Part shown: positions 8,212 through 45,952 of the stretch, one piece after another | Position numbering within the stretch: position 1 is the first letter of the stretch | How the letters are laid out: every line of letters starts with the position of its first letter | DNA from: a virus | Lineage: Duplodnaviria; Caudoviricetes | Direction: 5' to 3' (one strand) | Virus record (IMG/VR): IMGVR_UViG_3300049165_000014 | Location: 1 to 52,758 of that record | Length of the DNA: 52,758 nt | Translations under genes and position numbers: made by a program | Notes under the pieces: generated by a model | What the model saw: only the letters and a program-made list of their open reading frames with translations | Told to the model about the DNA's origin: nothing | The model's database searches: none

Positions 8212-8481
8212 ATGGCCGAGTGCATCCAACACGGTACGTGGAGTGACAACTACTGTGGTCCGGATTGCGAGCAACTGACCAAGCAGTGGAACGAGAGGCA
8301 AGGCATGGAAGAGACCGCACTCAAGTGGGTAGTGGTTGTGCAGGCCGAGGACGGCGAGGCACCACGGATCCATGGTCCGTTCGACTCCAACCTTGAGGCT
8401 CGGATCTACGAGGACCGGAAGATCGATGCCCCACCCGGGGCAAGGGCGTGGATCGTCCCGATCTACCCGCCTGAGGACTGA
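8212..8481 (+). CDS. Hypothetical protein
   Basis: GAGG RBS; 89 aa. Confidence 0.7.
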   Translation: MAECIQHGTWSDNYCGPDCEQLTKQWNERQGMEETALKWVVVVQAEDGEAPRIHGPFDSNLEARIYEDRKIDAPPGARAWIVPIYPPED

Positions 8482-8492
8482 GAGGTTTCACC

Positions 8493-8747
8493 ATGGGCCA
8501 ATACACGGCAGACCCGGACGCCAGTCCGTTCGATCGCAGCCTGATGACCCTCGCCCAGGTGCTCGACGACAACGGGCACGAGGAGGACGCAGAGATCGTG
8601 GGGTCCGCCGCAGCGGAGCTGCGGGAGTTCCAGAAGCTGCCGGGTGGCACCCCCACGGACGTGTACCGCGTATTGGAGATGGTCCAAGGCTCGGCTGCCA
8701 GCGTGATGGATGTGATCGGAAGGAACTTCCCACCCCCCAGCAACTGA
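8493..8747 (+). CDS. Hypothetical protein
   Basis: GAGAGG RBS; 84 aa. Confidence 0.75.
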   Translation: MGQYTADPDASPFDRSLMTLAQVLDDNGHEEDAEIVGSAAAELREFQKLPGGTPTDVYRVLEMVQGSAASVMDVIGRNFPPPSN

Positions 8748-8757
8748 AAGGCAAGGC

Positions 8758-9078
8758 ATGGCGAAGGCAGTGGTCATCCCCCCGGCGGGAGACGTGCTCG
8801 TGGTCGACTGGCCCGAGGGGGACGACGAGAGACTTCAGACCATGTACCACCACATCAAGGGGTACGTGGAGCTGGTGAACCTGCCGGAGGCAGGCATCCA
8901 CATGTGGGCTGACGAAGAGGGCTTGCTCAAGCCTGACCCGCAGCACAACCTGCGAGCTTCAGTACTGGCGCAGCGTCCCATCGTCGGGACGGTGGTGCTC
9001 ACCCCGTTCACGGAGGGACCCCGATCGCAGGGGTTCACCGAGGAAGAAGCCGAGAAGATCGGAAACCTGTTCGACTGA
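8758..9078 (+). CDS. DUF3846-like protein
   Basis: GYVELV...DEEGLLK...N.RA...IVGTVVL motif. Confidence 0.75.
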   Translation: MAKAVVIPPAGDVLVVDWPEGDDERLQTMYHHIKGYVELVNLPEAGIHMWADEEGLLKPDPQHNLRASVLAQRPIVGTVVLTPFTEGPRSQGFTEEEAEKIGNLFD

Positions 9079-9083
9079 GGTAC

Positions 9084-9145
9084 CGGGCACGCCGCACTGG
9101 TAGCGGCAGGGCTACGGCTCTCCAGGTTCGAGTCCTGGGTGTCCA
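9084..9145 (+). ncRNA. tRNA-like RNA lacking an anticodon loop
   Basis: Acceptor GGGCAC/GTGTCC, D-arm GCCGC-ACTGGTA-GCGGC, third arm AGGGC-TACG-GCTCT, T-arm CCAGG-TTCGAGT-CCTGG. Confidence 0.7.
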
Positions 9146-9184
9146 CTTCGAAAGCAATGACAACACAAACGGGAGGTAACGGAC

Positions 9185-9748
9185 ATGGCACGCGAGGTGA
9201 TCGTCCGCCTGGTCGATGACATTGACCCGAATGTCGAGGCTGACGAAACCGTTAGCTTTGGCATCGACGGGGAGAACTTCGAGATTGACCTCAGCAGTGA
9301 GCACGCGACTGCTCTCCGTGAGGCTCTCGCTACGTATGTGGCGCACGCCCGGCGGGCGAAGGTTTCGCGCCGCTCGTCGCACGGAAAGCCCTCGCCTCAG
9401 CAGGATCGGGAGCTGAACCAGAAGATCCGGGAGTGGGCACGCGAGCGAGGGGCGAAGGTCTCCGACCGAGGCCGTATCCCTCAGCCCATCGTGGACGCCT
9501 ACCACGGCCGTCCATCCAGCTTCGTCCCGACTCTCACCCCAGAGAACGAGGAGAAGGCTCGGGCTCGCGGCCTGGAGTTCGACTCGCCCAACAAGGAGCG
9601 GCTTGCTGAGAACCTGACCCAGGCTTCACAGGCACCAACGCTCACTGTCGTCCCCAGCCCGTTCGAGGTTCCCGCAGGTCAGGTCGAGGAGGCCAAGCCC
9701 AAGCGGGCCACTCGCAAGCGCGCAGGTCGTACGGCCAAGGCCGAATGA
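9185..9748 (+). CDS. lsr2: Lsr2-like DNA-bridging protein with a C-terminal extension
   Basis: LVDDID...ADETVSFGIDG..FEIDLS...IREWAR..G..VSDRGRIP. Confidence 0.92.
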   Translation: MAREVIVRLVDDIDPNVEADETVSFGIDGENFEIDLSSEHATALREALATYVAHARRAKVSRRSSHGKPSPQQDRELNQKIREWARERGAKVSDRGRIPQPIVDAYHGRPSSFVPTLTPENEEKARARGLEFDSPNKERLAENLTQASQAPTLTVVPSPFEVPAGQVEEAKPKRATRKRAGRTAKAE

Positions 9749-9891
9749 CAAGCTTGTAAGTTCGCTCCACGGGGGGGCGAGTGTTAACCAACGACAGTGA
9801 GCCATTTGGGGCACGCCGGTGTGGCGTGTATCACTGAAACGGGGCAACAAATGTCCTCGATGTCCATACGTGAGAGTGAGAGGTACCTACG

Positions 9892-10491
9892 ATGGCTGGC
9901 ATCCCACTGCCTCGCCTTGATCTTGATCGCGCGCTCCGGGTTAGATCAGCCCAGGAGGTGCGGCCGGTGGAGGAGCGGAAGGGTGGTCCTAAGGGGTCAG
10001 GCTTGACCCCGCAGGTCATCGAGGAAGAGAAGGCTCGGGGACTCAATCAGAATCAGATCGCTGCGAAGTACGGTGTGACTCGCCAAACGGTGAGCGGAAT
10101 GAAGAGGCTTCGTGGTCGTTTCTCAATGACTCCCCGTGAGCGGGTTCTGGCACAGTTTCCGTGGAAGATCCCGGCGAGGTTCAATGATGCCGAGATCAAT
10201 CGGAACATGAGGAACCACGCCGAGTATGTAGCCACCGGCGGCAAGGGTATGTCGGATCGCAAGCTCAAGAGGCTTGCCTCCTTCTACCGCAGGCTTGAGC
10301 GTGACAACCTGGTGGTTGAGTTCGATCCAGACATCGAGCCCAACGAGTTCTCCCAACTCGGAGGGTTCAGGCTGGTACCCCGAGAGGACTCGGATGGGGA
10401 TCTGATGATCCGAGTCAACGACTGCACGGTTCTAACCGATGAGGGGCGACGTTTCCTGTGGAGGATTCCCCAGCGTCGCCCTGAAGTCTAA
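9892..10491 (+). CDS. Immunity repressor (Cluster A / L5 gp71-like)
   Basis: N-terminal HTH (NQNQIAAKYGVTRQTVS); HAEYVATGGKGMS..KL.RL..FY...VEFDP...D.MIRVN..T.LT.EG. Confidence 0.9.
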   Translation: MAGIPLPRLDLDRALRVRSAQEVRPVEERKGGPKGSGLTPQVIEEEKARGLNQNQIAAKYGVTRQTVSGMKRLRGRFSMTPRERVLAQFPWKIPARFNDAEINRNMRNHAEYVATGGKGMSDRKLKRLASFYRRLERDNLVVEFDPDIEPNEFSQLGGFRLVPREDSDGDLMIRVNDCTVLTDEGRRFLWRIPQRRPEV

Positions 10492-30282: not shown

Positions 30283-31146
30283 CTAGAGCCTGTCTCCCAG
30301 CGCTGCCTTTCGGTGCGCTGCTTGTGCTCTCTCGTCTGCCGCGCTAGCGGCGTACCTGTTCAGCATCTCCCGAGACTCCCAACCCATCAGGCGCATCAGG
30401 TCGGTCTCTCCGTTGCCGTCGGCCAGCCACCGATGGGCGGCCGTGTGGCGGAGCTGGTGCGGATGGATCCTGCCAAGACCTGCCTGCTTTCCCCGGCGCT
30501 CCAGCATCTGGGCCAATCCTGACGTTGTGAGCCTGCCGTAGCGCGTTAGCCATAGGTCCGGCAGTCCTGACCACGGATGAGTCTTTCGCTCCCGCAGGTA
30601 CCGTCTCACGGCCTCCGCTGTCTTCGCTCCGATCGGAACGATCCTTGGGCGCCGATTCTTCCCCATCACCAGGACGGACAAGGTCCTCATATCCACGTCT
30701 TCGGGCTTCAGCCCGAGCAACTCCGAGGCCCTGAATCCGGTGTCGATGAACATCCGGACGATCGCCTGATCTCTCTTCGCTTCGAAGGTCCTTGCTGAGC
30801 AGGCAGCCAGCAACTTCTTCAGATCCTCGTCCGGGAGGACGGGCACTGGCACCTGCGGCACCTTCGGTGGCTTCAGCTTGTCGAAGGGGTTGGAGTCAAT
30901 GATCTCCTCTTCCTTGAGCCACTTGTAGAACTGCTGCCAGGATCGGTAGTGCTGGCTGACGTACGAGGCACTCACACGTGCCGACAGCTCGGCGAGGATC
31001 TTCTTCAGGTCCCGAGCAGAGGCATCCACCTTGGGCAGCTTGCTGGCTGCCTCGGTGTAGATCTTGATCGTCCTCGGGGACTTGTTCTCTGCCTGCAAGT
31101 GGATCTTCCAGTCAGCAACCGCTTCGCCCACTGAGAGGCTCGTCAT
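30283..31146 (-). CDS. int: Tyrosine integrase (short, XerC-like; alternative start 31167)
   Basis: DTGFRASEL, MGKNRR, HPHQLRHT, MGW, RY catalytic residues. Confidence 0.92.
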   Translation of the reverse strand: MTSLSVGEAVADWKIHLQAENKSPRTIKIYTEAASKLPKVDASARDLKKILAELSARVSASYVSQHYRSWQQFYKWLKEEEIIDSNPFDKLKPPKVPQVPVPVLPDEDLKKLLAACSARTFEAKRDQAIVRMFIDTGFRASELLGLKPEDVDMRTLSVLVMGKNRRPRIVPIGAKTAEAVRRYLRERKTHPWSGLPDLWLTRYGRLTTSGLAQMLERRGKQAGLGRIHPHQLRHTAAHRWLADGNGETDLMRLMGWESREMLNRYAASAADERAQAAHRKAALGDRL

Positions 31147-31184
31147 GGCACTGTTTCCCCAGGTCACAGAGCCAACCGGTGTGT

Positions 31185-31233
31185 ACCGCCTTGTAAGCGG
31201 TAGGTCGTCGGTTCGATCCCGACCATCGGCTCT
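31185..31233 (+). mobile_element. attP core: 3' half of tRNA-Thr(UGU)
   Basis: Anticodon arm ACCGC-CTTGTAA-GCGGT, AGGTC, T-arm GTCGG-TTCGATC-CCGAC, acceptor strand CATCGGC; adjacent to int. Confidence 0.85.
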
Positions 31234-31337
31234 GACCAGGGAATATACCCCCTGGAGGGGGTTGGATCAAGGTCCAACAGCAACCGCTTCGGCGGTCTGC
31301 AAGCCCCTGCGCGGCCCCGTCCGGTAGCTGCTCGGGG

Positions 31338-31361
31338 GCTCTACCACTGAGCTACACCGGC
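31338..31361 (-). other. Isolated tRNA 5' half (acceptor strand plus D-arm), inverted relative to the attP core
   Basis: Minus strand GCCGGTG-TA-GCTC-AGTGGTA-GAGC; GCCGGTG pairs with CATCGGC of the attP half. Confidence 0.8.
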
Positions 31362-31370
31362 CCTAGACGA

Positions 31371-35950: not shown

Positions 35951-38900
35951 TTAGACGAGCGCTCCGAACTTCCCGCCTGTGGTCTGGAAATCCATCCACG
36001 GAGGAAGGTTCATGTCGGAGTCAGTGCGCTTCAGATCTCGAATCCCATCCCCACCGCAGTACATGGTGAAGGACCGAGGAGTAGTTACCGTGTTCGTTGC
36101 CTGGTATCCGACTTCCACGATCAGGCGGTCGCCTGCAAGGAAGTTGATTCCGCCAGGCACTGCCGTCTGCGAGATGTCTAGCTCCAGTTCCCAGCCTCCC
36201 GCAGCGGTCCCGATGGGATCCACCGCGATGAACGAGTAACCGGTACCTCGCACAGCAGCAGCACTGCCCTGAGACACCCACACACAGACCGCAATCTGCA
36301 TGCCACCGTTGGCGTGCGACTGGTATCCACCCAGTGCCATTCGGATCTTGCCCGACAGAGTGCCATCGGCCTCTGCGGGGTTCGACACGAACTGCCTGAT
36401 CAACCCCTCGTAGGGGTTGGTGGCTACCGTCTCGGTTGCCGTGACAGCCGTCGATACACCTTCCGGCATGGGAGCCAGGTGCCTCACATTCGTGAGAGCA
36501 GCCGCAGCGTCCACGTTCCACAGGGACAGTGCAGTCCCCGGAGTCCACGGACCGGTGTCGTTGGACAGGTACAGCCGGTGGTACGGGCCATCCGACGTGC
36601 CGCCGGTGAAGTCCGGCATGGTCGTGTCCGGGTAGCCCGAGTGCCAGGTGATGAACGAGCCCTTGACGATCTCGACCTGGAAGTACTGGCTTGCGTCCCC
36701 ATCTTCGGTGCTGGTGTTCGACTGGCTGTATGCGCCGAGCTTGAAGTAGCACCCGGTCGTGTCACCGTCGAGCCCCGACAACTTGGTGACGCCGTCGAGG
36801 TCGATTCCCAGGTTGCCGTTGTTGCACCAGATCCGGATGGTGTGGAACTCCATCGGATCGTAGTTGCCGATCAGCGTGTACTTCTGCTCCGTACCACCGC
36901 CAGGCGGTGAGTACCGAACGCTGAGGGTGAGGACCCCGCTCTTGACCTCCGTGAGAACACGGATCAGGTCCGAGCTGGCATCGTGAATCTGACCGACACA
37001 AACCCAGGGCTTGGTTTCAGTCAGGTGCGGAACACGGAACCGGTACTCCATGTAGTGGTTACCCGTGCCACCGTCCCACGACGCGTGCCCAGTCGAATCA
37101 TCGGAGCCATTGATCTTCAGCTCTCGAAGCTCAGATCGTGGGTACTGCGTGTTCTCCGAGGTACGCCCAGCATCGACGTTGACCTCGAAGATGACGTTGC
37201 CTACGTCGTTGAGGTAGAACCGATTGGGATCAGTGAAACCATTGAGGAGTTCGTCCCAGTGGTGGTCGACGTGGTTGGTTCCTCCGCCCTCCATACCAAG
37301 GCCGAGGTTGTACCAGTTACCACCGGATCGGGCGATGTGGAGTGCCTCGGCCGGATCCGCCGGGAGGCCACCGCCGCCCGTCGAGACGCTCGACGTGATG
37401 GTGATGGTGTCCGCCGCTGAGCCGTAGTCCGAGCTGAGCGAGAACTGGAGTACGTACGATCCTTCTGCTGTCGCGACGAAGTCGAATTCCGTGCCACTTA
37501 CGGTTTCTCCGATACGGTCAGGACCGTCGAGGATCTCCCAACCAACCGAAACGTTGGGAGCCCCGTAGTCCATGTACGTGGCCTGAAGCGTCCTGCGCTC
37601 ACCCAGACCCAGGCTGAGGTTGTCGCCTGCATCCACCACCGGCGGACGCCCAGCCGGGTTGATCATCTCGACCGTCAGGGTGTCCCGAAGACCGCCGTCC
37701 CTGCTGTAGGTCCGGTTGATCCCGAGGATCTGAAGGCGAACGTCGTTGCCCATTCCCTGCGGGTCGTAGATGGCGATCGTGTCCCCGAGCTGCAAGCGCG
37801 GGTCACCGGCAATCTCAATGGCGTCCGTGGTCGGCGTCGGCCGAGACGTACGCTGCACAAGCTGGGTGATTAGGGCAGAGCCCTCGACGGAGTCCTGATA
37901 CCAGTCACCCGACAGCTCCAGGTTGCGGGCGCCGTACTTCTCCATGGAGTCGTAGTCCCGAGCCCAGACCGTGTCGTTGGCGTCGTCGATGATCTGAGTC
38001 CCCGACAGCCGGAATGCCGGGCTGGAGTTGTCCTCCGAGGCGTTCGACAGTCCACTGGCCAGGCGAGCGTCAAGCTCGTACCCGTTCCAGATCCGGATGA
38101 TCAGCGCGCCGTCCGTGGTGAAGTACGCGTTGATGTCCACACCGCTGACGAACTCCGGGCGCTCTGCCCACTGATCGTCCTCAAGGAACTGGACGCAGTA
38201 CCCACCAACGACGTTGTCGTCCCAGTACGGGGCGAACGGGTTGCCCTCCTCGGACACGTACCGAGTCAGCTTGAACGGGAGCGGAGACTGAATGCCATCC
38301 GCAGCCCACACCTTGAAGTACCGAACCGTGCGTGCAGGCACGTAAAACTGCTGCACATCATCGGCCTCGAACACCGTGCGATGAATGACGGCACGCTTCT
38401 TGTTCGCGGCGATCGTGTACACATTCCGGACCGAGTCCAGGCTATTGGTGATCACCAGGTCTGATGCGTGATCCAGGGACAGACGGCGAACCGTCGTGCC
38501 CTGCTTCTGCTGGATGGTGTCCAAATTCCAGAACCTGAACACACCCTCTTCATCCCAGAACACAGCCCCCATCTCGGCTGCTGCGACTTCCGTGATGATG
38601 TCCCAAGCCTCTCGCGGCTCGGTGGATGGCATGCTCGTGAATCGGTTCTTGCCGATGTCCAAGTCAGCACGGTACTTTGGGGTACGCCACACCCGGTCCG
38701 TTTCGAACAGCGGGTCCCAAGCATCCCGAACGCCGTAGAACACATCGCTCAGGGACAGGGCCTGGCCGATCGTGATTCGGCCACCGATCTGGTCGTAGAA
38801 GCCCTCGTGTGCGTTGACGTACGCACCGGCGGGGACAATGCCGGTGTCCACACCGTTGATGGACATCCGCCAGGTGAAGCCCTCTTCGGGGTCCGGGTAG

Positions 38901-40123
38901 AGATCCCACACGCAGAAGATGTCGATGTGGTCGACACCAGTAGGCAGTGTCTGCCATGCGCCGGTCCTGACAACCAGGTCGAGATCCTCGAACTGGTCCT
39001 GCTGGAATCGAGTACGGATCCTTCCGTCCTCAACCTCCAGGTACAGGGAGAAGAAGTGCCCGAGTCGGACCTCCATGACCTGGTGCAGATCCACCGTTCG
39101 GTAGAGCTGACCATCGGGGCCATTGGTGTTGATCGTGAACCCGAGGTAGTGCGAGCTGTTCGGGCGCTGGTTGGTGTACCCGTCTACGTCGTCCGGATAC
39201 TCCAGGTCCCGGGTCTCCATCCAGTAGCGGATGACGCCCTGGTAGTTGGCAGGGGAGACGTACGGACCGCTCTCACGAATAGGAGTGCCCAGGCCAGAGA
39301 ACGCCAGCGGGCGTGGAGTCCCAGGCGGGGCGTCCGGATGAACCGGCCCGATCTGCTCGTACATGGGCGTGCCATCGGCCGGGAACGTCATGGCCGAGGG
39401 GTTGTCCAGCCATCCGATCGTGGGCAGGTAGGACCCATTCCCTGTCAGGAAGAACCCGAGTCCCTCGCCAGGCTTGGGCTCCTGCGGGATCATGTTCGCG
39501 AACTCTTCAGGCAGGAGAGGACGCTTAGGCGACGGGCCGACATCGCACAGCCGAAGCGCGTGGTCGATGACCCAATGAGAGCGGCAGAGCTGGGAGTCCA
39601 GCTCCCCGAAGTTGACGTGGATATCCGAGACCGCCCACGGCGGCAGCAGAATGGGCCGACGCAGCTTCTCGACTCGGTCGAGCGCGGTGATCTCAACGCT
39701 GTTGTCGGCACGGTGCGGGGTGACCGTCCGGATGTTGCCGACGAACTGCGGGTACCAGAACACCCCGACCGGGGTCTCAACCCCAATCCGGTAGGTGATC
39801 TCAGCGCCAACCATGTCCTTGCCGAAGAACGGCGACAGCGGGTTGTACGGGGAGAACACGCCCGTCAGGGGCATGTTGTTGTACTCGCCCCCCATGACGA
39901 GGCTCATCTCCGCAGCAGCGGCACCCTCGATCAGCAGGATCTCTGCCGGAGCGGTACCGCTAAGCTGGCGGTCAAGACTGATCTCATCGGCGAAGTCACC
40001 AAGGCTGGTCAGCTCGTGGTCGTATTCGCCATCCTGGTTCCAGTCAACGAGGATCTCGTGGAGAAACCTGCGCTCGGAGCTGGTGATTGCCGCTTCAGCG
40101 GCGGCGCCTCCGTGCTCCTGCAC
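35951..40123 (-). CDS. Large tail tip / hub protein with PKD-like and PL7 lyase domains
   Basis: 1390 aa; GDPRLQLGD; PVVDAG.N; YPRSELRE...VGQIHD...YFKLGAYSQSN. Confidence 0.85.
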   Translation of the reverse strand: MQEHGGAAAEAAITSSERRFLHEILVDWNQDGEYDHELTSLGDFADEISLDRQLSGTAPAEILLIEGAAAAEMSLVMGGEYNNMPLTGVFSPYNPLSPFFGKDMVGAEITYRIGVETPVGVFWYPQFVGNIRTVTPHRADNSVEITALDRVEKLRRPILLPPWAVSDIHVNFGELDSQLCRSHWVIDHALRLCDVGPSPKRPLLPEEFANMIPQEPKPGEGLGFFLTGNGSYLPTIGWLDNPSAMTFPADGTPMYEQIGPVHPDAPPGTPRPLAFSGLGTPIRESGPYVSPANYQGVIRYWMETRDLEYPDDVDGYTNQRPNSSHYLGFTINTNGPDGQLYRTVDLHQVMEVRLGHFFSLYLEVEDGRIRTRFQQDQFEDLDLVVRTGAWQTLPTGVDHIDIFCVWDLYPDPEEGFTWRMSINGVDTGIVPAGAYVNAHEGFYDQIGGRITIGQALSLSDVFYGVRDAWDPLFETDRVWRTPKYRADLDIGKNRFTSMPSTEPREAWDIITEVAAAEMGAVFWDEEGVFRFWNLDTIQQKQGTTVRRLSLDHASDLVITNSLDSVRNVYTIAANKKRAVIHRTVFEADDVQQFYVPARTVRYFKVWAADGIQSPLPFKLTRYVSEEGNPFAPYWDDNVVGGYCVQFLEDDQWAERPEFVSGVDINAYFTTDGALIIRIWNGYELDARLASGLSNASEDNSSPAFRLSGTQIIDDANDTVWARDYDSMEKYGARNLELSGDWYQDSVEGSALITQLVQRTSRPTPTTDAIEIAGDPRLQLGDTIAIYDPQGMGNDVRLQILGINRTYSRDGGLRDTLTVEMINPAGRPPVVDAGDNLSLGLGERRTLQATYMDYGAPNVSVGWEILDGPDRIGETVSGTEFDFVATAEGSYVLQFSLSSDYGSAADTITITSSVSTGGGGLPADPAEALHIARSGGNWYNLGLGMEGGGTNHVDHHWDELLNGFTDPNRFYLNDVGNVIFEVNVDAGRTSENTQYPRSELRELKINGSDDSTGHASWDGGTGNHYMEYRFRVPHLTETKPWVCVGQIHDASSDLIRVLTEVKSGVLTLSVRYSPPGGGTEQKYTLIGNYDPMEFHTIRIWCNNGNLGIDLDGVTKLSGLDGDTTGCYFKLGAYSQSNTSTEDGDASQYFQVEIVKGSFITWHSGYPDTTMPDFTGGTSDGPYHRLYLSNDTGPWTPGTALSLWNVDAAAALTNVRHLAPMPEGVSTAVTATETVATNPYEGLIRQFVSNPAEADGTLSGKIRMALGGYQSHANGGMQIAVCVWVSQGSAAAVRGTGYSFIAVDPIGTAAGGWELELDISQTAVPGGINFLAGDRLIVEVGYQATNTVTTPRSFTMYCGGDGIRDLKRTDSDMNLPPWMDFQTTGGKFGALV

Positions 40124-40975
40124 TTATGCCTCCAGTAGTGTCAATGTCGCATCCCTGAGAGGGAATCGAGGGGAAGGTGTTTCGATCTGGTCGATGAGCA
40201 CCTCAGGTGCAGCTCCACCAACCTCGAACTCAGTGGCAACAGCTCCCGCCTCAACCTGAGGGGCAGCCAGATATACGGTTGTGTTGGTCGAAGTCAGACC
40301 AATCGAGAACCGACAAGCCGCAGCACCTGCGGGCGGCGTGATATTGCTCAGCATGTGCATCGTCCACGTCGGCGTGATGTCGAACGCCGGAGAAACCGTG
40401 GGTGTAAGTGGCTGCTTGTCCTTGTCGAACCAGTCGAGCTGGATCGTGGCGCCCAGGTACGGGACGCCCTGAGGAGAACCGAGCCACACCGATGCCGTGA
40501 TCGCCTCACCCGGTAGGACCGGGATGAACTTGTCGTGGTCGAACCGAACGCGAGGCGCAATCTCAGTCCAGCCCGAGAACGCAATGCTGCGCCCCGGCAG
40601 GTCAATCGACGCCGGGTACGCAGATTCCATGACATGAGTGGATCCGGTAGGCAGGCGGACACCCGCCCGCTCGTACCGAGACACAAGGCCGCGAGTGGCC
40701 TGCAGAGACAGGCGATTCTTCTTGAGCGGGTTGATCAGCCAGTACGGACCCCAGATGACCCGGGAGTGCATGGCCTCCAGGAACCGGTACTCCGACTGCT
40801 CCAGGTACTTGAACTCGAACGTGTAATCGGCACGGTGCCCGGTTACGTCCATGGTTCGAGCGCCGCTCAGTCCCTGATGAATACCGCCGTACCGAACCTC
40901 ATTGATCGCGATGTCCGGTTCGGGACAGACGAGGGGCCGCAGGTCTCCCAACGGCCCCAAGTACCAAGTACTCAC
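40124..40975 (-). CDS. Minor tail (distal-tail-like) protein
   Basis: Directly follows the tape measure gene; QVEAGAVAT CBM-like insert. Confidence 0.8.
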   Translation of the reverse strand: MSTWYLGPLGDLRPLVCPEPDIAINEVRYGGIHQGLSGARTMDVTGHRADYTFEFKYLEQSEYRFLEAMHSRVIWGPYWLINPLKKNRLSLQATRGLVSRYERAGVRLPTGSTHVMESAYPASIDLPGRSIAFSGWTEIAPRVRFDHDKFIPVLPGEAITASVWLGSPQGVPYLGATIQLDWFDKDKQPLTPTVSPAFDITPTWTMHMLSNITPPAGAAACRFSIGLTSTNTTVYLAAPQVEAGAVATEFEVGGAAPEVLIDQIETPSPRFPLRDATLTLLEA

Positions 40976-43900
40976 CCTCGCCTATCCCTTCGTGTATTCG
41001 TCTTGTTGACCAGCTTGGCCACTCCGTTACCGTCGACCTTCAGAGTCGAACCAGTCAGGCCAGCAACCACCGCACTAGCGATTGCGCCCGAGTCCAGGCC
41101 GAAACCGTCCGCAGCGATCTGCGAGCGGATATCGCCGGACACACCAGTCGGCAACTGGGACAGGGTCTTGTCGAACCCAGCGGTCATGGTCACGTCGATC
41201 GGCTCTTCGAACGGAGTCGCGAGCTGATCTGCCATTCCCGAGACCAGAGTCTGAACCTCGCCGAAGCTATGCCTCAGCCCGTTGTACAGACCCTCCATGA
41301 TTGCCTTACCGGCAGGAACCAGAAGCCTGCGGTCCTTGGAGATCGGACCCTTGTTCTGCACGATCCAGTCAGCGATGCCGGTGACCCAGCCCTGCACCTG
41401 ATCCCAGAGCGCCTTCAGGCCATCCCAGAGACCCTGGATGATCGCCTTACCGGCTTCCCACAGCCAGGACCCTGCATTCGAGAAGAAGTCCGTGACCCAG
41501 TTGTAGATGCCGACGAAGATCTCACCGATGCCTGCGGCCAGCCCGACCAGGATTCCGATCAGGATGTTCACGATCCCGGTCAGGATCTGAACGATCCCGT
41601 CCCAGACTCGCTGCCAGTCGCCCGTCAGGAGTCCCATGAAGACGTTGACGATCCCCATGATCACGTCAAGGACACCCTGAATGATCGTGCGGATGAACGG
41701 CCAGACGAACTGGACGACACCGAGCACGAAGTTCATGGCACCAGCGACCACGCCAATCAGCGTCGCCGCGAACTGAGCCGCCACCGGAATGGTCTCGGTC
41801 AGAACTCCGATGATCTGCACCAGGAACGGAACCAGCAACCGAACCAGGTCGATCAGGATCGGTAGAACCGCCTGAACCAACTGCATGAACGGCGGTAGCA
41901 GTGCATTCAGAACCGTAATGAGCGCCTGGAAGATGACCATTGCGAGCTGCAACAGCGGCGGAATCAACGGCTGAATGATCTGCCACAGCATGGTGAAGAA
42001 GCTGACCAGTTGAGTGATCAGCGGCATGACCATGGCGATTGCCTGCGTCAGGAACGTCCCGATCATCTGGACCAGAACACCGAACATCTGGGTGATCACC
42101 GGCATAACCGGACCCAGAGCGCCAATCAGCGTCTCAACTAGCTGACCGAACAACTGTCCGATCTGCAGCAGAACCGGAGAGAGCTGCTGCATCATCGTGA
42201 CGAAGTGCGGACCAATGGTCTGGATCCACTGGGTGAATGCAGCGCCGACAACTTCGAGCGCGGGACCCAGGCCGACGGCCAGGCCCTGCACGATGAACGA
42301 GATCGCCAGGAACAGACCCTCAAGCAGCGGCATCAGGGAGAACAGGAGATCGAAGAATCCCTGGAACCCAGCGGCCATGCTCGGTCCGAGCCGAGCCATA
42401 GCGCCGACGCCGTATTCGACCAGCCTCAGCCAGTTGTCGAACAGAACCCCGACAACCTGGGCAAGTCCCTCGATGGCCTTCGCGAAGGTCCCATCACTGA
42501 CTAGCCTGCTAGCAAGTGTGGCCCAGTCAGCGCCGAACTTGTTGAGCAACCTTGAGAGAGTGCCGAACGAGGCCGCCCCGGCACTGGCCCACGTCATGAA
42601 TCCACCAACGGAGTTGGTGATGAACGGGGTGATCTCGCGGAAGAACGTGCCGATGTTCCCCAGCAGCCCCCGGAGCATCTCCAGTCCGCTCTGGGAGGTG
42701 AAGATTGCCGCCAGGCCCCGAGCCCAGCCGACCAGACCAGTCGCGATGCTGTTGATGCCCTGTTCGAGCACCGGGAAGATCGGACGCAGCGACTCGAAGA
42801 CGGGCCGCAAGCCCTTCTCGAACGTGGCCGAGACAGACGCCCTGAGCGCATCGAACTCAGGCTGAATGGACTTGGCAGCGGCCTTGATGCCGTCGATTCC
42901 GAGCGCGATGGCGGCGAAGCCACCTGCACCGGCGAGCAGCAGCGAGGGGAGCCCAGCCAGCAGACCCCCGACGAGGCCGAGGATGCCCGGCAGCAGGGCC
43001 AGGACCGCCACCACGATCTTGCCGGTACGGCTGAGCTGCATGAACCCGGAGATCGGGTTGATCAGACCCTTGCCCAGGTTGAACAGTCCCTTGGTGAGAC
43101 TGCCCGTGGTCCTGACCAGAGGACCCAAGACGCGGGAGTTCCTGGCGAAGCCAGCGAACGAAGAACCCAGGCGACCGAAGCTCCGGACTGAGTTGCCCAG
43201 TCCCCGACCCAGGCTGCGGACAGCAGCACCGGATCCGTCGAACGCGTTGCGCGCCCTCCGGCCGAACTCCAGGGCACCGTTGCCTAGTGCAACGAATCCC
43301 CGGTACAGCCGGTCCGTCTTGGTCCGGCGAACGATGGCGGGCATAGGGGACAGGTCCCGTACTGCCAGCGCCGTGGAGGTGCTCATCTCCCGGGCGCCAC
43401 GTGCGCCGTCACGGAACGACTTGGCAGCCGCCGCTGTGGCGGTACGCAGTCGATCCCAGGAAGACGCAACCCCGATCGAGTCCCGGTCCATTCGCCGGAT
43501 CTCGTTCTTGATGTCGCGGAACAGGTAGCGCAGCCCGTTGATGCGGGCCTGGAATCCAGAGATCCTCTCCAGGTTGCGGAGTAGATCCCTGTCGCCCATC
43601 GGGTTGGAGACCGCCGACCGGTCCACCGTGGGCGCGTAGTTCTGGAGCTTGTTCAGTTCGCGGTACTGGCGAACCATCTCGCGGATGTTCGCGGAGGACC
43701 GAGCAATACCCTGCCACGCCTGACGAATCCGGCTGGACTCCTTGGCTGCCTGAGCAGCCTGTCGAGTCGCCTCGCGGAACTCGTCTCCCGGGCGTACACC
43801 CCCGAAGTCGAAGCTGATCCCCGACACTGCATCGCGCAGCCGGTTACCCCAGCCTCCTGCATCACGCACAGAGTCCCGGAACTCACTGACCCGATCTCGC

Positions 43901-44445
43901 GAGTCGGTGAACAGGCGACCCATGTTCGCCCACACGTCCCGCAGGCTCCGAGACTGAGAAGCAGCGTTACGCAGGAACGGAGGGATCCGGCCAGCCGCAG
44001 AGCGGATGCCGTCGAAGTGGAACCGGGAGTCCCGAGCGTCACCCTCGAAGGGGCGCATGGCCTGGGCTGCACGCCTGAGGTTGGCGTACATCCGGTTGGT
44101 CATGACGGTCGTGGACAGGAGCAGGCGCTCGAAGTCCGTCAGGTCACTGAGGTCAATGTCGGGATCAAGGCTGCGGAGGAACAGTGCATCCCGGATCCTC
44201 TGGCTCACACCACGAAGACCACGGGTGTTCACGTCAACCGGGATCTCGACCCGGGTGGTTGCCTCAGCCGCGCGGGCTGCGGCCTGAATCCGTGAGACGA
44301 ACCCATCCAGGTTGGGAACGACCTTGACTTCCAGGACGACATCCCTCATCGCCCGGAGCTTGGCCTCCAGCTCTTCCCTGAACCCCGTCAGGTCCGGGAC
44401 GACACGGATACCAATCCGGCCGACGATCTGAGCGCCTGTCGCCAT
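40972..44445 (-). CDS. Tape measure protein
   Basis: 1157 aa; VGRIGIRVVPDL.GFR; amphipathic repeats; KGP...D..LL.PAG.AIM.GL. Confidence 0.92.
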   Translation of the reverse strand: MATGAQIVGRIGIRVVPDLTGFREELEAKLRAMRDVVLEVKVVPNLDGFVSRIQAAARAAEATTRVEIPVDVNTRGLRGVSQRIRDALFLRSLDPDIDLSDLTDFERLLLSTTVMTNRMYANLRRAAQAMRPFEGDARDSRFHFDGIRSAAGRIPPFLRNAASQSRSLRDVWANMGRLFTDSRDRVSEFRDSVRDAGGWGNRLRDAVSGISFDFGGVRPGDEFREATRQAAQAAKESSRIRQAWQGIARSSANIREMVRQYRELNKLQNYAPTVDRSAVSNPMGDRDLLRNLERISGFQARINGLRYLFRDIKNEIRRMDRDSIGVASSWDRLRTATAAAAKSFRDGARGAREMSTSTALAVRDLSPMPAIVRRTKTDRLYRGFVALGNGALEFGRRARNAFDGSGAAVRSLGRGLGNSVRSFGRLGSSFAGFARNSRVLGPLVRTTGSLTKGLFNLGKGLINPISGFMQLSRTGKIVVAVLALLPGILGLVGGLLAGLPSLLLAGAGGFAAIALGIDGIKAAAKSIQPEFDALRASVSATFEKGLRPVFESLRPIFPVLEQGINSIATGLVGWARGLAAIFTSQSGLEMLRGLLGNIGTFFREITPFITNSVGGFMTWASAGAASFGTLSRLLNKFGADWATLASRLVSDGTFAKAIEGLAQVVGVLFDNWLRLVEYGVGAMARLGPSMAAGFQGFFDLLFSLMPLLEGLFLAISFIVQGLAVGLGPALEVVGAAFTQWIQTIGPHFVTMMQQLSPVLLQIGQLFGQLVETLIGALGPVMPVITQMFGVLVQMIGTFLTQAIAMVMPLITQLVSFFTMLWQIIQPLIPPLLQLAMVIFQALITVLNALLPPFMQLVQAVLPILIDLVRLLVPFLVQIIGVLTETIPVAAQFAATLIGVVAGAMNFVLGVVQFVWPFIRTIIQGVLDVIMGIVNVFMGLLTGDWQRVWDGIVQILTGIVNILIGILVGLAAGIGEIFVGIYNWVTDFFSNAGSWLWEAGKAIIQGLWDGLKALWDQVQGWVTGIADWIVQNKGPISKDRRLLVPAGKAIMEGLYNGLRHSFGEVQTLVSGMADQLATPFEEPIDVTMTAGFDKTLSQLPTGVSGDIRSQIAADGFGLDSGAIASAVVAGLTGSTLKVDGNGVAKLVNKTNTRRDRRG

Positions 44446-44850
44446 CTACTGTGTCCTTCCCTTCCGCCACTCAGCTCGCGCCATGGCGGCGAACAGGCTG
44501 GTCTTCTTCTTCTGCTGCTTCTCGGGACGCTGCACAGGCTCAGGTGCCTTCGGCTTCTTCTTCGAGTTGGCAGCAACGAATGCGTACGTGTTCTCCCGAA
44601 CCGCATCGAGCAGGTTCGCGAGCATGTACAGTTCCTGGTTCCATCCTCGGAACTGGTCACCGCCACGCATGGCGGCTACAGTGGCGGATTCCAAGGGGAG
44701 TGCCCGGACGTAGCACAGAACGAGCCGGGGCGACAGCCCCGACCCATCCTTCATGATGTCGCGCAGATCGATCTGGTAGTACCGCTTCAGATCTGCTACA
44801 AGAAACTCGCCGTACTGATCAATCAGTTGGGCGAGTTCTCGGCTTCCCCC
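44446..44850 (-). CDS. Tail assembly chaperone, frameshifted part (T)
   Basis: -1 frame relative to 44823-45203. Confidence 0.85.
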   Translation of the reverse strand, partial: GGSRELAQLIDQYGEFLVADLKRYYQIDLRDIMKDGSGLSPRLVLCYVRALPLESATVAAMRGGDQFRGWNQELYMLANLLDAVRENTYAFVAANSKKKPKAPEPVQRPEKQQKKKTSLFAAMARAEWRKGRTQ

Positions 44851-45203
44851 GGCTGAGTCGCCTCCGTCCAAAGCTCAAGGATCTTCATCCCGAGCAGGAG
44901 GTCGCCGTTCACGGTGCGGACCAGCTTCTCACCCTTGCCGTCGCCGGTGACGTTGCGAAGAACGACCTCGACCGCAGTGGCCATGGCCTTCACGTCCTCG
45001 GCCGACTGATCCTCGTCCTCGCCATCCTCGCCCTTGTTCTCCTGGATCACGTCCAGGGCGGCGAGCACCTCGTCACGGTTGTTGCCGGGGATCCGCATCA
45101 GGTTCCGAAGAGTCAGCGTCTCGCCATCCAGCTCAAGCTGGAGGGGCGCGAACTCCTTGTCGAGAGCATCACGCAGGTCATCGAGGGAAAACAGATTGCT
45201 CAT
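44823..45203 (-). CDS. Tail assembly chaperone (G)
   Basis: MSNLFSLDDLR...TQPGEA; lies between the major tail and tape measure genes. Confidence 0.88.
   Translation of the reverse strand: MSNLFSLDDLRDALDKEFAPLQLELDGETLTLRNLMRIPGNNRDEVLAALDVIQENKGEDGEDEDQSAEDVKAMATAVEVVLRNVTGDGKGEKLVRTVNGDLLLGMKILELWTEATQPGEAENSPN
44844..44850 (-). other. Programmed -1 frameshift slippery site GGGGGAA
   Basis: CCG GGG GAA near the end of the G ORF; frame offset is -1. Confidence 0.8.
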
Positions 45204-45302
45204 GGTTGGCAGACCTTTTCTAAGTCAGTAGCAGCGGACCTAAGTTGGGAAGAGGGCGCAGGCGGTCCGCCAGGTAACCTGCGCCCCCAGTCGAGATGAT
45301 CT

Positions 45303-45317
45303 GCCCTAAGTCAGGTC
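45303..45317 (-). promoter_or_regulatory. Stoperator motif (minus strand)
   Basis: Reverse complement GACCTGACTTAGGGC just after the major tail gene. Confidence 0.8.
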
Positions 45318-45322
45318 TTGGA

Positions 45323-45937
45323 TCAGGGAACGGCCGTGGGGTTGATGCCCATGTCGAGGCTGATCCAGCGGTACAGCGGGTTCGAGCCGTCCTTGAGGAA
45401 GGTCGCCCGCAGCGGCAGCGCCGAGAACTCGTCGACAGCCAGCGTGACAGCACCCTCACGGAGGAGGCTGGCCTTCCGGGCGTAGAACCCGATGGCTGCG
45501 TCGCCGTCCACCATGACCATGCACAGGGACTTCTCCACACCAGCGGTAGGAGCCCCGGACACGATGAACTCACCCTCGACCGCACCGGCGGCGTTGGCCT
45601 GCCCGTAGTAGATCGACAGGGCCTGGTCGTCGAACTGATGCAGGTTGAAGGTCACGTAGTCCACGAGGGCCTCCGTGATGACCTGCTTCACAGCCTCGTT
45701 CTGCCAGGTCCCCCTGGTCTCGGCCTCCCCGCCGTCGAACCCGAACTCCGGCAGCTCCTCACGAGCGGTGTGGCCGATGTGGGACCAGCCGGTACCCAGC
45801 ACATCCGCAGCGTCCGGGTCGAAGCCCGGGTTGCGGAACGCCTGGATCAGAGCGGGCGTGGGAACCGAAGCGGTCCCAACCTCACCGATGTAGATGTAGC
45901 CCTTCGCAGCAGTGAAGATAGCGTCGTCGTTAAGCAC
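45323..45937 (-). CDS. Major tail protein
   Basis: LNDDAIFTAAKGY...GHT....PEFGFDGG...GTWQ...L.QFD. Confidence 0.92.
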   Translation of the reverse strand: MLNDDAIFTAAKGYIYIGEVGTASVPTPALIQAFRNPGFDPDAADVLGTGWSHIGHTAREELPEFGFDGGEAETRGTWQNEAVKQVITEALVDYVTFNLHQFDDQALSIYYGQANAAGAVEGEFIVSGAPTAGVEKSLCMVMVDGDAAIGFYARKASLLREGAVTLAVDEFSALPLRATFLKDGSNPLYRWISLDMGINPTAVP

Positions 45938-45952
45938 CTTAGGTCATACTCC

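What the first reader, a model, noticed from the sequence alone, without database searches (positions are those of the whole stretch)
9084..9145. Compact anticodon-less tRNA mimic upstream of lsr2
Seen: a four-way junction of about 62 nt with a D-loop containing TGG, a canonical T-loop TTCGAGT and a 6-bp acceptor stem closed by a C-A mismatch. The anticodon arm is a 5-bp stem capped by a UACG (UNCG) tetraloop, and there is no CCA. Inference: it cannot decode but keeps the D/T elbow recognised by RNase P/Z. It may be a processing signal releasing the lsr2 mRNA, a mascRNA- or Y-RNA-like small RNA, or a decoy for tRNA-directed defence enzymes.
Basis: partly seen in the sequence, partly recalled or inferred. 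Interest (0 to 1): 0.72.

Follow-up and report, generated by a model that had tools for sequence, protein, structure and literature searches.

The report
Anticodon-less tRNA-like element before lsr2
A 62-base RNA fold shaped like a shrunken transfer RNA sits between two genes of a soil phage, and it resembles small tRNA-like elements that lie between genes, many per genome, in other phages of actinobacteria and that probably mark where host tRNA-trimming enzymes cut the phage messages.

Summary
Bases 9085-9144 (+) fold into a gap-free four-way junction. It has a 6-bp acceptor, a 5-bp D arm with loop ACUGGUA, a 5-bp stem capped by UACG, and a 5-bp T arm with loop UUCGAGU. A loose cloverleaf descriptor finds this one site in the window and none in 1500 shuffles. 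ARAGORN and Rfam call nothing here.

No syntenic relative exists in any collection searched, so covariation of this element itself cannot be tested.

Following its T arm led to a family absent from Rfam 15 and from my paper searches. It is a 42-nt mini tRNA-like element with a 5-bp acceptor, a D-loop-like bulge, a 6-bp T arm and an invariant C after the discriminator. Six actinophage genomes carry 6-12 same-strand copies each. In the two genomes checked against annotation, 19 of 20 copies lie wholly in gaps between genes. Covariation is strong. One Mycobacterium phage also carries a 49-nt form built like the window's element.

Best reading (0.45): a tRNA-derived, non-decoding intercistronic element cut by host tRNA-end enzymes, freeing the lsr2 message. 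Cleavage is inferred, not shown. Rivals: decaying tRNA, alanine-accepting mini-tRNA or decoy, uncleaved leader structure.

The parts
8758..9078 (+). Upstream gene, DUF3846 protein (106 aa); its stop codon TGA is at 9076-9078
   Evidence: ORF listed. Pfam PF12957 at E 2.3e-12.
9084..9146 (+). Whole tRNA-like element: -1 base C9084, the cloverleaf 9085-9144, discriminator-like A9145 and C9146
   Evidence: Sequence and fold. The descriptor gives 1 hit in the window and 0 in 1500 shuffles. Model R2, built without this sequence, hits 9084-9145 at 30.9 bits.
9085..9090 (+). Acceptor stem, 5' strand GGGCAC. It pairs with 9139-9144 (GUGUCC); the third pair is G.U.
   Evidence: The register is the same as in the R2 alignment.
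9091..9107 (+). D arm: 5-bp stem GCCGC/GCGGC with 7-nt loop ACUGGUA
   Evidence: The loop matches 6 of the first 7 bases of the ACUGGCA variant of the mini-family bulge.
9108..9121 (+). Arm in place of the anticodon arm: 5-bp stem AGGGC/GCUCU (one G.U pair) capped by tetraloop UACG
9122..9138 (+). T arm: CCAGG UUCGAGU CCUGG
   Evidence: The identical 17-mer occurs in several actinophage tRNAs and tRNA-like elements.
9139..9144 (+). Acceptor stem, 3' strand GUGUCC
9147..9184 (+). 38-nt A/C-rich leader of lsr2 with Shine-Dalgarno GGGAGG at 9171-9176
   Evidence: No promoter-like or terminator-like site in 8400-9900.
9185..9748 (+). lsr2 gene (187 aa)
   Evidence: Pfam Lsr2 dimerisation domain at E 1e-24 and Lsr2 DNA-binding domain at E 5.5e-16.

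Best explanation
The element is a real, tRNA-derived RNA structure that no longer decodes. It is transcribed as part of the + strand polycistronic message, between the DUF3846 gene and lsr2.

It keeps the parts of a tRNA that end-processing enzymes read:
- an acceptor/T-arm helix of 11 stacked pairs
- a canonical T loop
- a D loop with GG
- an A-C tail.

It has lost what decoding needs. The anticodon loop is reduced to a UACG tetraloop and the variable loop is gone.

The proposed mechanism is inferred, not shown. Host RNase P would cut 5' of G9085. A 3' tRNA-end activity (RNase Z, or RNase E plus exonucleases) would cut at or just after A9145/C9146. This would release the upstream message, a tRNA-like RNA of about 60 nt, and an lsr2 mRNA that starts with a short unstructured leader and a strong ribosome-binding site.

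It would then be a single-copy, four-armed member of a wider class of actinophage intercistronic tRNA-like elements. That class works like the t-elements of plant mitochondria.
For: Shown by computation for the window's element:
- The cloverleaf is the dominant fold, and all 21 pairs are standard pairs, two of them G.U.
- This combination of features is absent from 1500 shuffles.
- It lies 6 nt after a stop codon and 38 nt before the lsr2 start. Both flanking genes are on the same strand, and no promoter-like or terminator-like site lies within 8400-9900.
- A model built only from six Microbacterium phage elements (R2) picks 9084-9145 as the sole strong hit in the window: 30.9 bits against 15.5 for the next hit.

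Shown for look-alike elements:
- The 42-nt mini tRNA-like element has 12, 6, 8, 9, 11 and 9 same-strand copies in phages Papyrus, MrMiyagi, phiScoe3, Sitrop, phiScoe55 and Amela.
- Across 42 distinct copies, 451 of 451 helix cells pair. 131 cells carry changes on both sides, and no shuffle of 500 reaches this.
- A bulge base pairs with a T-loop base in 34 of 40 copies, using four pair types.
- In Sitrop, 9 of 9 copies lie in gaps between same-strand genes, 6-60 nt after the stop and 32-55 nt before the next start.
- In Papyrus, 10 of the 11 copies in the stretch examined lie wholly in such gaps. One overlaps an annotated start by 11 nt.

Shared between the window's element and that family:
- the T loop UUCGAGU
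- 11 stacked pairs (6+5 in the window, 5+6 in the family)
- the A-C tail
- the D-loop-like ACUGG
- the same placement after a stop codon.

MrMiyagi, which carries mini copies, also has a 49-nt form at 39822-39870. It has a 6-bp acceptor, a small D hairpin, a 5-bp T arm and an A-C tail, and it starts 8 nt after a stop codon.

The Microbacterium cluster EA elements also covary in acceptor and third-arm stems. Meanwhile their 3:70 pair, their encoded CCA and their loop vary. This points to selection for shape rather than for amino-acid identity.
Against: - No cleavage, RNA end or small RNA has been seen for this or any related element.
- No RNA run holds the window (see Tried and rejected).
- The window's element has no relative in the same genomic position, so its own helices cannot be tested for covariation.
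- Its membership in the 42-nt family is weak by score. R3 gives 28.7 bits, but an identical T arm alone gives 21.3. R3 also aligns only 9109-9146.
- R2 scores ordinary tRNAs at 23-39.5 bits, so its hit says 'tRNA-like' and not 'this family'.
- The window has one copy where the other phages have arrays.
- Its many other tightly packed genes do without such an element.
- An 11-bp rather than 12-bp acceptor/T helix is not the canonical RNase P substrate.
- Same-strand intergenic placement is also where ordinary phage tRNA genes sit.
Confidence: 0.45

Rival explanations
1. A decaying tRNA gene, probably a former tRNA-Ala, that is on its way out and has no function of its own.
For: - No relatives were found, so conservation cannot be shown.
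- Phage tRNA arrays do hold degenerate tRNAs. Several hits of the compact-spacing pattern lie inside such arrays.
- The acceptor and D arm look like those of a tRNA-Ala-derived element in Microbacterium phages.
Against: - Neutral decay should break stems. Here all 21 pairs are intact, and only loops and linkers are trimmed: the anticodon loop went to a stable C(UACG)G tetraloop, the variable loop to 0 nt and the 8-9 linker to 0-1 nt.
- Elements of similar build in other actinophages are plainly under selection for structure.
Confidence: 0.2
2. A trans-acting mini-tRNA. After processing and CCA addition, the roughly 60-nt RNA is charged with alanine, or binds alanyl-tRNA synthetase or another enzyme that reads the acceptor end. 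It would serve as an amino-acid donor, a sponge, or a decoy for defence enzymes that attack tRNA acceptor ends.
For: - With A9145 as discriminator, the stem reads G1-C72, G2-C71, G3.U70, A73.
- From recalled textbook knowledge, G3.U70 with A73 is the anticodon-independent identity set of alanyl-tRNA synthetase, and it also works on minihelices. I did not check this in a paper here.
- Some look-alikes share the G.U third pair and A73: Golden, Koji, Pherbot and Neferthena and phiScoe55.
Against: - The third pair is not conserved in the look-alikes. It is A-U in Casey, Nucci and MillyPhilly and G-C in Kauala. Across the 42-nt family it is G-C in 26, C-G in 12 and G.U in only 2 of 40.
- The stem has 6 pairs, not 7, and no CCA is encoded.
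- A G.U at one given pair plus an A at one position is a small coincidence.
- Anticodon nucleases could not be decoyed by an RNA without an anticodon loop.
Confidence: 0.13
3. An uncleaved structural module of the lsr2 5' leader. A compact, very stable fold stays on the mRNA. It insulates lsr2 translation from the upstream gene, or protects the message from 5'-end-dependent decay, without any use of tRNA enzymes.
For: - The fold is stable, at 0.82 of the ensemble.
- It is followed by an unstructured A/C-rich leader and a strong ribosome-binding site. The same holds for the Microbacterium, Gordonia and mini-family elements.
Against: It does not explain why a plain hairpin would not do. The T-loop sequence, the GG-containing loop, the G1-C72 pair (40 of 40) and the C after the discriminator (42 of 42) are kept across the mini family.
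Confidence: 0.15
4. A chance fold in G+C-rich intergenic DNA.
For: The energy z-score is only -2.65, and 5 of 200 shuffles fold as well. The 131-nt context is not unusually stable.
Against: - None of 1500 shuffles has the feature combination.
- The exact T-arm motif occurs only here in the window.
- An independent model finds the site.
Confidence: 0.03

Closest known systems
Plant mitochondrial t-elements (tRNA-like acceptor/T-arm structures that give mRNA 5' and 3' ends through RNase P and RNase Z). Paper PMC1920247: only the search listing and the start of the abstract were seen.
   Same: A non-decoding tRNA-like fold placed between coding regions of a polycistronic transcript. The acceptor and T arm are kept and the anticodon domain is dispensable. 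The proposed use is as a cutting mark for tRNA-end enzymes.
   Different: This is a phage of actinobacteria, not an organelle. Cleavage is not shown here. The window's element keeps a D arm and a third arm. There is no sequence relationship.
mascRNA / MEN-beta tRNA-like small RNA (Rfam RF01684). Its biology is recalled, not read here.
   Same: A compact cloverleaf of about 60 nt with a short third arm and no encoded CCA, at the junction of a longer transcript. It is the best Rfam match to the site.
   Different: It scores 15.4 bits against a gathering score of 42.5 (E 1.9), so the window's element is not a member. mascRNA is a vertebrate nuclear RNA.
42-nt mini tRNA-like elements of actinophages Papyrus, MrMiyagi, phiScoe3, Sitrop, phiScoe55 and Amela. 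The family is defined here (A3, A4, R3). It was not found in Rfam 15 or in my paper searches.
   Same: - T loop UUCGAGU
- 11 stacked acceptor+T pairs
- G1-C72 and the A-C tail
- D-loop-like ACUGG
- it begins a few nt after a stop codon and ends 30-55 nt before the next start
- actinophage early-gene region.
   Different: The family has an 11-nt bulge where the window has two hairpins. Its helices are 5+6 pairs, not 6+5. It has 6-12 copies per genome against one here. The R3 score of 28.7 bits is only about 7 bits above a bare T arm.
MrMiyagi 39822-39870, a 49-nt element
   Same: A 6-bp acceptor, a small D hairpin with a UGG loop, a 5-bp T arm, an A-C tail, 8 nt after a stop codon, followed by a leader and a ribosome-binding site. 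This is the nearest build to the window's element.
   Different: It has a shorter D stem (3 bp) and 6 nt instead of a 14-nt third arm. R1 scores it at only 27.3 bits. It is a single example.
Microbacterium cluster EA phage element between a hypothetical gene and DNA polymerase I. It is annotated tRNA-Phe(AAA), tRNA-Ala, or not at all.
   Same: - 26 of 27 bases identical over the T arm plus 3' acceptor strand
- same -1 C, GGGC start, G.U third pair and A-C tail in Golden
- same parse of D-stem 3' strand, position 26 and third-arm start
- followed by an A/C-rich leader and a ribosome-binding site.
   Different: It is 80 nt long, with a 7-bp acceptor, a 15-nt loop on the third arm and a 3-nt variable region. 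The hosts and flanking genes differ. R2 does not separate it from ordinary tRNAs.
Canonical tRNA, and the tRNA-like domain of tmRNA
   Same: T arm, D loop with GG, acceptor stem. With A9145 as discriminator, it carries the alanine-type G3.U70/A73 that tmRNA also carries (recalled).
   Different: It has no 7-nt anticodon loop, no variable loop and a 6-bp acceptor. ARAGORN and Rfam call neither a tRNA nor a tmRNA here.

Membership tests
tRNA (Rfam RF00005 / ARAGORN) | Recognised by standard tRNA finders | tested here: not met
   ARAGORN finds 0 genes in the window. There is no RF00005 match at the site at gathering score or at E up to 10. The only clan match is tRNA-Sec at 13.2 bits.
tRNA (Rfam RF00005 / ARAGORN) | 7-nt anticodon loop and a variable region | tested here: not met
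   The loop is 4 nt (UACG). There are 0 nt between the third arm and the T arm.
tRNA (Rfam RF00005 / ARAGORN) | T arm with loop UUCRANY, and GG in the D loop | tested here: met
   CCAGG UUCGAGU CCUGG, and loop ACUGGUA.
mascRNA-menRNA (RF01684) | Reaches the family's gathering score | tested here: not met
   15.4 bits against 42.5, E 1.9.
YrlA / bacterial Y RNA, and tmRNA | Match to the Rfam models or an ARAGORN tmRNA call | tested here: not met
   No such match at E up to 10 in 8950-9300 or in the whole window. ARAGORN finds no tmRNA. I did not look for an Ro60 (rsr) gene.
Actinophage 42-nt mini tRNA-like family (model R3, defined here) | 5-bp acceptor, 11-nt bulge, 6-bp T stem | tested here: not met
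   The window has a 6-bp acceptor, two hairpins (31 nt) and a 5-bp T stem.
Actinophage 42-nt mini tRNA-like family (model R3, defined here) | Score clearly above what a T arm alone gives | tested here: inconclusive
   28.7 bits for 9109-9146 against 21.3 bits for a bare identical T arm. Accepted copies score 28-67 bits.
Actinophage 42-nt mini tRNA-like family (model R3, defined here) | G1-C72, discriminator A followed by C, 11 stacked pairs | tested here: met
   The window has G9085-C9144, A9145, C9146 and 6+5 pairs. In the family, G-C is seen in 40 of 40 and the final C in 42 of 42 rows.
Actinophage 42-nt mini tRNA-like family (model R3, defined here) | Lies in a same-strand intercistronic gap just after a stop codon | tested here: met
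   In the window it lies 6 nt after TGA and 38 nt before ATG. Sitrop 9 of 9; Papyrus 10 of 11 wholly in gaps.
Actinophage 42-nt mini tRNA-like family (model R3, defined here) | Several copies per genome | tested here: not met
   There is one hit in the window; the next best scores 13.2 bits.
Alanine-accepting tRNA-like RNA | G3.U70 with A73 (identity set recalled from the literature) | tested here: met
   G9087.U9142 is the third pair if A9145 is the discriminator. R2 uses the same register. If C9084/A9145 counts as pair 1-72, the G.U is at 4:69 and the feature is not met.
Alanine-accepting tRNA-like RNA | 3' CCA end and charging by AlaRS | not testable with these tools
   CCA is not encoded: A-C-U-U follows the stem. 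Charging needs a bench assay.
t-element-like processing signal | Cut by RNase P at the 5' border and by a 3' tRNA-end enzyme | not testable with these tools
   No RNA data could be examined.
Microbacterium cluster EA tRNA-like element (model R2) | Specific match to the family model | tested here: inconclusive
   R2 gives 30.9 bits, E 2.6e-6, and is the only strong hit in the window. Ordinary phage tRNAs score 23-39.5 bits with R2.

The most novel reading that the evidence does not exclude
Phages of actinobacteria (Mycobacterium, Streptomyces and the unknown host of this soil phage) punctuate their early polycistronic messages with miniature tRNA look-alikes.

Each is an acceptor/T-arm helix of 11 pairs with a D-loop mimic that docks on the T loop. 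Host RNase P, 3' tRNA-end enzymes and perhaps the CCA-adding enzyme would dice the transcript into single-gene mRNAs. This would be a viral counterpart of the mitochondrial tRNA punctuation model.

The window's element would be the most tRNA-like member. It still carries the alanine identity pair G3.U70 and A73, so its released 60-nt product might even be charged.
Probability: 0.35. Interest if true: 0.85.

Novelty: new variant of a known kind. Interest (0 to 1): 0.72.

Why it matters
If these elements are cut by tRNA-end enzymes, this would reveal an unrecognised layer of gene expression control in actinobacteriophages. Defined mRNA units would be made from long operons by borrowed host tRNA machinery.

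The practical consequences are several:
- It would explain a set of wrong or missing tRNA annotations. These include the 'tRNA-Phe(AAA)' calls in Microbacterium phages and a 'tRNA-Arg' that overlaps a coding sequence in Sitrop.
- It would give a compact, portable RNA part for splitting operons in Mycobacterium and Streptomyces engineering.
- It offers a well-covarying small RNA family with a tertiary pair for structural study.

For this phage it suggests that lsr2, a nucleoid-silencer homologue, is expressed from its own processed message. The question is directly testable by end-mapping RNA-seq in laboratory phage-host pairs.

Tried and rejected
**Searches for relatives of the region, all blank or too distant**
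- blastn of 8700-9800 against phage records found nothing.
- tblastn of the DUF3846 protein found 1 record at 35% identity.
- The viral contigs protein scan with DUF3846 gave 1 locus at 29% identity. The scan with Lsr2 gave none.
- The word-indexed search of 5.8 billion proteins returned only the protein itself, among 5 candidates.
- The DUF3846 protein was searched in 401 genomes of the order of a Mycobacterium genome. It matched 1 of 401, at E 1.2e-4.

**Pattern scans for the same architecture**
- An exact 42-mer in viral contigs gave 0 hits.
- Loops fixed with stems free gave 0 hits in viral contigs.
- D loop plus T loop at compact spacing gave 17 stretches in viral contigs. I read all 17 and 9 of them with longer flanks. 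They are degenerate tRNAs in arrays, Ser-type tRNAs or other odd tRNA-likes, none of this build.
- In genome contigs the pattern gave 47 stretches. All were folded. A group of about a dozen shares one sequence, which I read by eye as coding. L021 lies in what I read by eye as coding sequence and L045 is an odd long tRNA-like. None has this build.
- In metagenome contigs the pattern gave 119 stretches, of which only 80 were handed over as loci. R1 scored at most 24.5 bits on them. The other 39 were not seen.

**Other checks that led nowhere**
- Six other lsr2 phage loci, out of 460 records, were tested for a link to lsr2. R1 scored at most 15.7 bits and R2 at most 11.6.
- R3 found no copies at E up to 0.001 in KatherineG, Golden, MillyPhilly or Tourach.
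- The Gordonia (26 records) and Papyrus-type (14 records) blast sets are almost identical within each group. They added no covariation by themselves.
- Sequencing runs: one DNA run, possibly the source of the window, holds the stretch, and no RNA holder is listed. Laying its contigs showed only the source contig over the element, and no variant. This says nothing about expression.

**Literature.** Seven searches were answered. Passages were read in PMC7302621, PMC10732093 and PMC10690425. I found no description of intercistronic mini tRNA-like arrays in actinophages. PMC10690425 reports 10,006 candidate viral RNA structures, including tRNA-like ones. Its supplementary tables, which I could not open, may list this family.

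**Considered and rejected**
- Intrinsic terminator: no U tract.
- attP remnant: the real attP-like tRNA piece is at 31175-31231.
- Minus-strand RNA: the G.U pairs become A.C mismatches, and R1 gives 40.9 bits against 97.8.
Full report
**What the window is.** It is a complete-looking IMG/VR virus record of 52,758 bases with 61.5% G+C. Small genes run on the + strand up to about 30 kb. A tyrosine integrase lies at 30283-31167 (-), next to an attP-like tRNA fragment, and structural genes run on the - strand. Its portal protein is 57% identical to those of Mycobacterium abscessus prophages and 52-57% identical to other mycobacteriophage portals, including L5. It is therefore a temperate phage of an actinobacterium. 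One soil metagenome run holds it.

**The observation.** The finding sits in a 106-nt gap. Upstream is a DUF3846 gene (8758-9078) and downstream is lsr2 (9185-9748). Both are on the + strand and both are confirmed by Pfam.
- a 6-bp acceptor (9085-9090 with 9139-9144, third pair G.U)
- a 5-bp D arm with loop ACUGGUA
- a 5-bp stem with a C(UACG)G tetraloop
- a T arm CCAGG-UUCGAGU-CCUGG
- no linker bases in the minimum-energy fold, and no CCA.

RNAfold returns this cloverleaf as both minimum-energy and centroid structure, at -32.8 kcal/mol and 0.82 of the ensemble. The z-score is -2.65, and 5 of 200 shuffles fold as well.

Energy alone is thus modest evidence. The combination of features is much rarer. 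A loose cloverleaf descriptor finds one site in the window and none in 1500 dinucleotide-preserving shuffles. The descriptor was written after the fact. The exact T-arm motif occurs only here in the window. No promoter-like or terminator-like site lies in 8400-9900. The element is therefore most simply part of the operon's transcript.

**What it is not.** ARAGORN finds no tRNA or tmRNA. Rfam has nothing at gathering score at the site. With relaxed thresholds, only mascRNA-menRNA (15.4 bits against 42.5) and tRNA-Sec (13.2 against 47) appear. It is not a member of any curated RNA family.

**The search for relatives.** The flanking genes are nearly unique. The DUF3846 protein has no relative in the word-indexed search of 5.8 billion proteins other than itself. 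No related locus turned up in the phage records, IMG/VR or 401 sampled genomes. Pattern scans for the same architecture in IMG/VR, in the species genomes and in metagenome contigs also gave nothing of this build. Of the 119 metagenome matches, I saw 80. Covariation of this element itself therefore cannot be tested, and that is the main weakness of any claim about it.

**The Microbacterium look-alike.** A blastn of the 72-nt region against phage records gave short matches. The best was 26 of 27 bases over the T arm and 3' acceptor strand. It lies in Microbacterium phage Golden and its kin, on an element annotated 'tRNA-Phe(AAA)' between a hypothetical gene and DNA polymerase I. I fetched eight representatives of these Microbacterium phages, which the cited paper discusses as cluster EA. 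They show an 80-nt tRNA-like element with a 15-nt loop on the third arm. In Neferthena it is a 68-nt form with a 2-bp anticodon stem and a UGC loop.
- Acceptor and third-arm stems covary: 95% of cells pair and 8 of 21 pairs change on both sides.
- The 3:70 pair is G.U, G-C or A-U, and CCA is encoded in only some.
- Each element is followed by an A/C-rich leader and a ribosome-binding site.

Model R2, built from six of these without the window, picks 9084-9145 as the only strong hit in the window, at 30.9 bits against 15.5 for the next. It aligns all four arms in the register where A9145 is the discriminator. However, R2 scores ordinary phage tRNAs at 23-39.5 bits. The hit therefore shows tRNA-likeness and sequence nearness, not family membership.

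**The mini tRNA-like family.** Other unannotated T-arm matches led further. Mycobacterium phages Papyrus and MrMiyagi and Streptomyces phages phiScoe3, Sitrop and phiScoe55 carry a 42-nt element. It has a 5-bp acceptor, an 11-nt bulge that starts like a D loop (for example ACUGGCA), a 6-bp T stem, the loop UUCGAGU, then A-C.
- Five copies already pair in 55 of 55 cells, with 8 of 11 pairs changed on both sides.
- Model R3 finds 12, 6, 8, 9 and 11 same-strand copies in those five records, and 9 in Amela. It finds none in KatherineG, Golden, MillyPhilly or Tourach.
- Over 42 distinct copies, 451 of 451 helix cells pair. 131 cells carry double changes, and no shuffle of 500 reaches this.
- A bulge base pairs with the last T-loop base in 34 of 40 copies, as A-U, G-C, C-G or U-A. 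The bulge therefore docks on the T loop like a D loop.
- G1-C72 and the C after the discriminator never vary.

Rfam 15 has no match to these elements. My seven answered paper searches found no description of them. The large catalogue in PMC10690425 may include them in supplements that I could not open.

**Where the copies lie.**
- In Sitrop, 9 of 9 copies lie in gaps between same-strand genes, 6-60 nt after the stop and 32-55 nt before the next start. One copy is annotated as a 'tRNA-Arg' that overlaps a coding sequence.
- In Papyrus, 10 of the 11 copies in 38000-46100 lie wholly in such gaps, mostly 6-15 nt after the stop. One overlaps an annotated start by 11 nt. I did not place the twelfth copy.

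**How the window's element relates to the family.** It shares these features:
- the T loop
- the A-C tail and G1-C72
- a total of 11 stacked pairs (6+5 against 5+6)
- a D loop that matches 6 of the first 7 bases of the ACUGGCA variant of the bulge
- the placement, 6 nt after a stop and 38 nt before a start.

phiScoe55 matches 46 nt of it at 80%. MrMiyagi, which carries mini copies, also has a 49-nt element at 39822-39870. That element has a 6-bp acceptor, a 3-bp D hairpin, a 5-bp T arm and an A-C tail, 8 nt after a stop codon. This is an intermediate build. Against membership, R3 gives only 28.7 bits, about 7 above a bare T arm, and it aligns only the 3' part. The window has a single copy. I therefore treat it as a probable distant, four-armed relative, not as a member of the 42-nt family.

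**Mechanism.** Three things are shown: a tRNA-shaped, strand-specific fold; its rarity by chance; and the existence and selection of similar intercistronic elements elsewhere. The rest is inferred. The kept parts (acceptor/T helix, T loop, D-loop mimic, G1, discriminator plus C) are what RNase P, RNase Z and the CCA-adding enzyme read, according to recalled textbook knowledge. The parts needed for decoding are gone. The most economical reading is a processing mark that separates the lsr2 message from the upstream one, as t-elements do in plant mitochondria (PMC1920247, listing only). I put this at 0.45.

A side observation is that, with A9145 as discriminator, the stem reads G1-C72, G2-C71, G3.U70, A73. 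This is the alanine identity set (recalled). The look-alikes do not conserve that pair, so I give the charged mini-tRNA or decoy reading 0.13. A decaying tRNA gets 0.2, an uncleaved leader structure 0.15 and chance 0.03.

**Verdict.** The tie to lsr2 is not general: none of 6 other lsr2 loci has such an element. The by-product of the work is a strongly covarying, multi-copy, apparently undescribed mini tRNA-like family in actinophages. That family is the more striking result, and it makes the question testable in laboratory phage-host pairs.

Noticed in passing
window 31175-31231 (+), beside 30283-31167 (-): Rfam tRNA match (34.8 bits) that lacks the D arm. It is the 3' part of a tRNA-Thr(UGU)-like gene, right next to the tyrosine integrase, so it is most likely the attP core.
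   Followed up: partly
window 31340-31365 (-): A 26-nt stretch that reads like the 5' half of a tRNA (acceptor plus D arm) with no matching 3' half. The fold of 31255-31368 (-) is unremarkable, z -0.32.
   Followed up: partly
window 30390-30479 (-): A c-di-GMP-II-GAG riboswitch model scores 30.2 bits, below the gathering score of 40, inside the integrase reading frame. Probably chance.
   Followed up: no
Phage records NC_022053.1, MT776806.1, OQ672747.1, NC_054676.1, OQ672751.1, NC_028904.1 (loci L212-L245): Arrays of 6-12 same-strand 42-nt mini tRNA-like elements in gaps between small genes. They show full pairing, heavy covariation and a bulge-to-T-loop tertiary pair. They are not in Rfam 15.
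   Followed up: yes
L232 (Sitrop NC_054676.1 41493-41575): The annotated 'tRNA-Arg' overlaps the end of a coding sequence, and it shares its 41493 end with the mini element at 41493-41534. It is likely a mis-call.
   Followed up: partly
L187, L194, L195, L196 (Microbacterium phages Golden, Casey, Koji, Pherbot): Annotated 'tRNA-Phe(AAA)' features are 80-nt tRNA-like elements with a 15-nt loop. ARAGORN reads an AAA anticodon in the three of these scanned (Golden, Casey, Pherbot). Related phages leave the same element unannotated or call it tRNA-Ala.
   Followed up: partly
L204 (Gordonia phage KatherineG NC_030695.1, about 47130-47225): An unannotated tRNA-like element (paired acceptor, T arm with loop UUCGAGA) between a hypothetical gene and a SprT-like gene. 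It is nearly identical in 26 Gordonia phage records. ARAGORN calls nothing there.
   Followed up: partly
L013 9756-9822 (-), L016, L068 253-308, L123 (three copies about 555 nt apart): Other compact tRNA-like sequences with very short third arms, in IMG/VR and metagenome contigs of various G+C content. They are unrelated in sequence to the window's element.
   Followed up: no
L045 309-400 (-): ARAGORN reports a 92-nt 'tRNA-???' with a 2-base anticodon in a Solirubrobacteraceae genome bin. By eye the acceptor helix looks unusually long.
   Followed up: no
window 9185-9748: This Lsr2 is 187 aa. The two Pfam domains end at residue 107, leaving an 80-residue tail with no domain match. Most phage Lsr2 matches cover only residues 1-107.
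   Followed up: no
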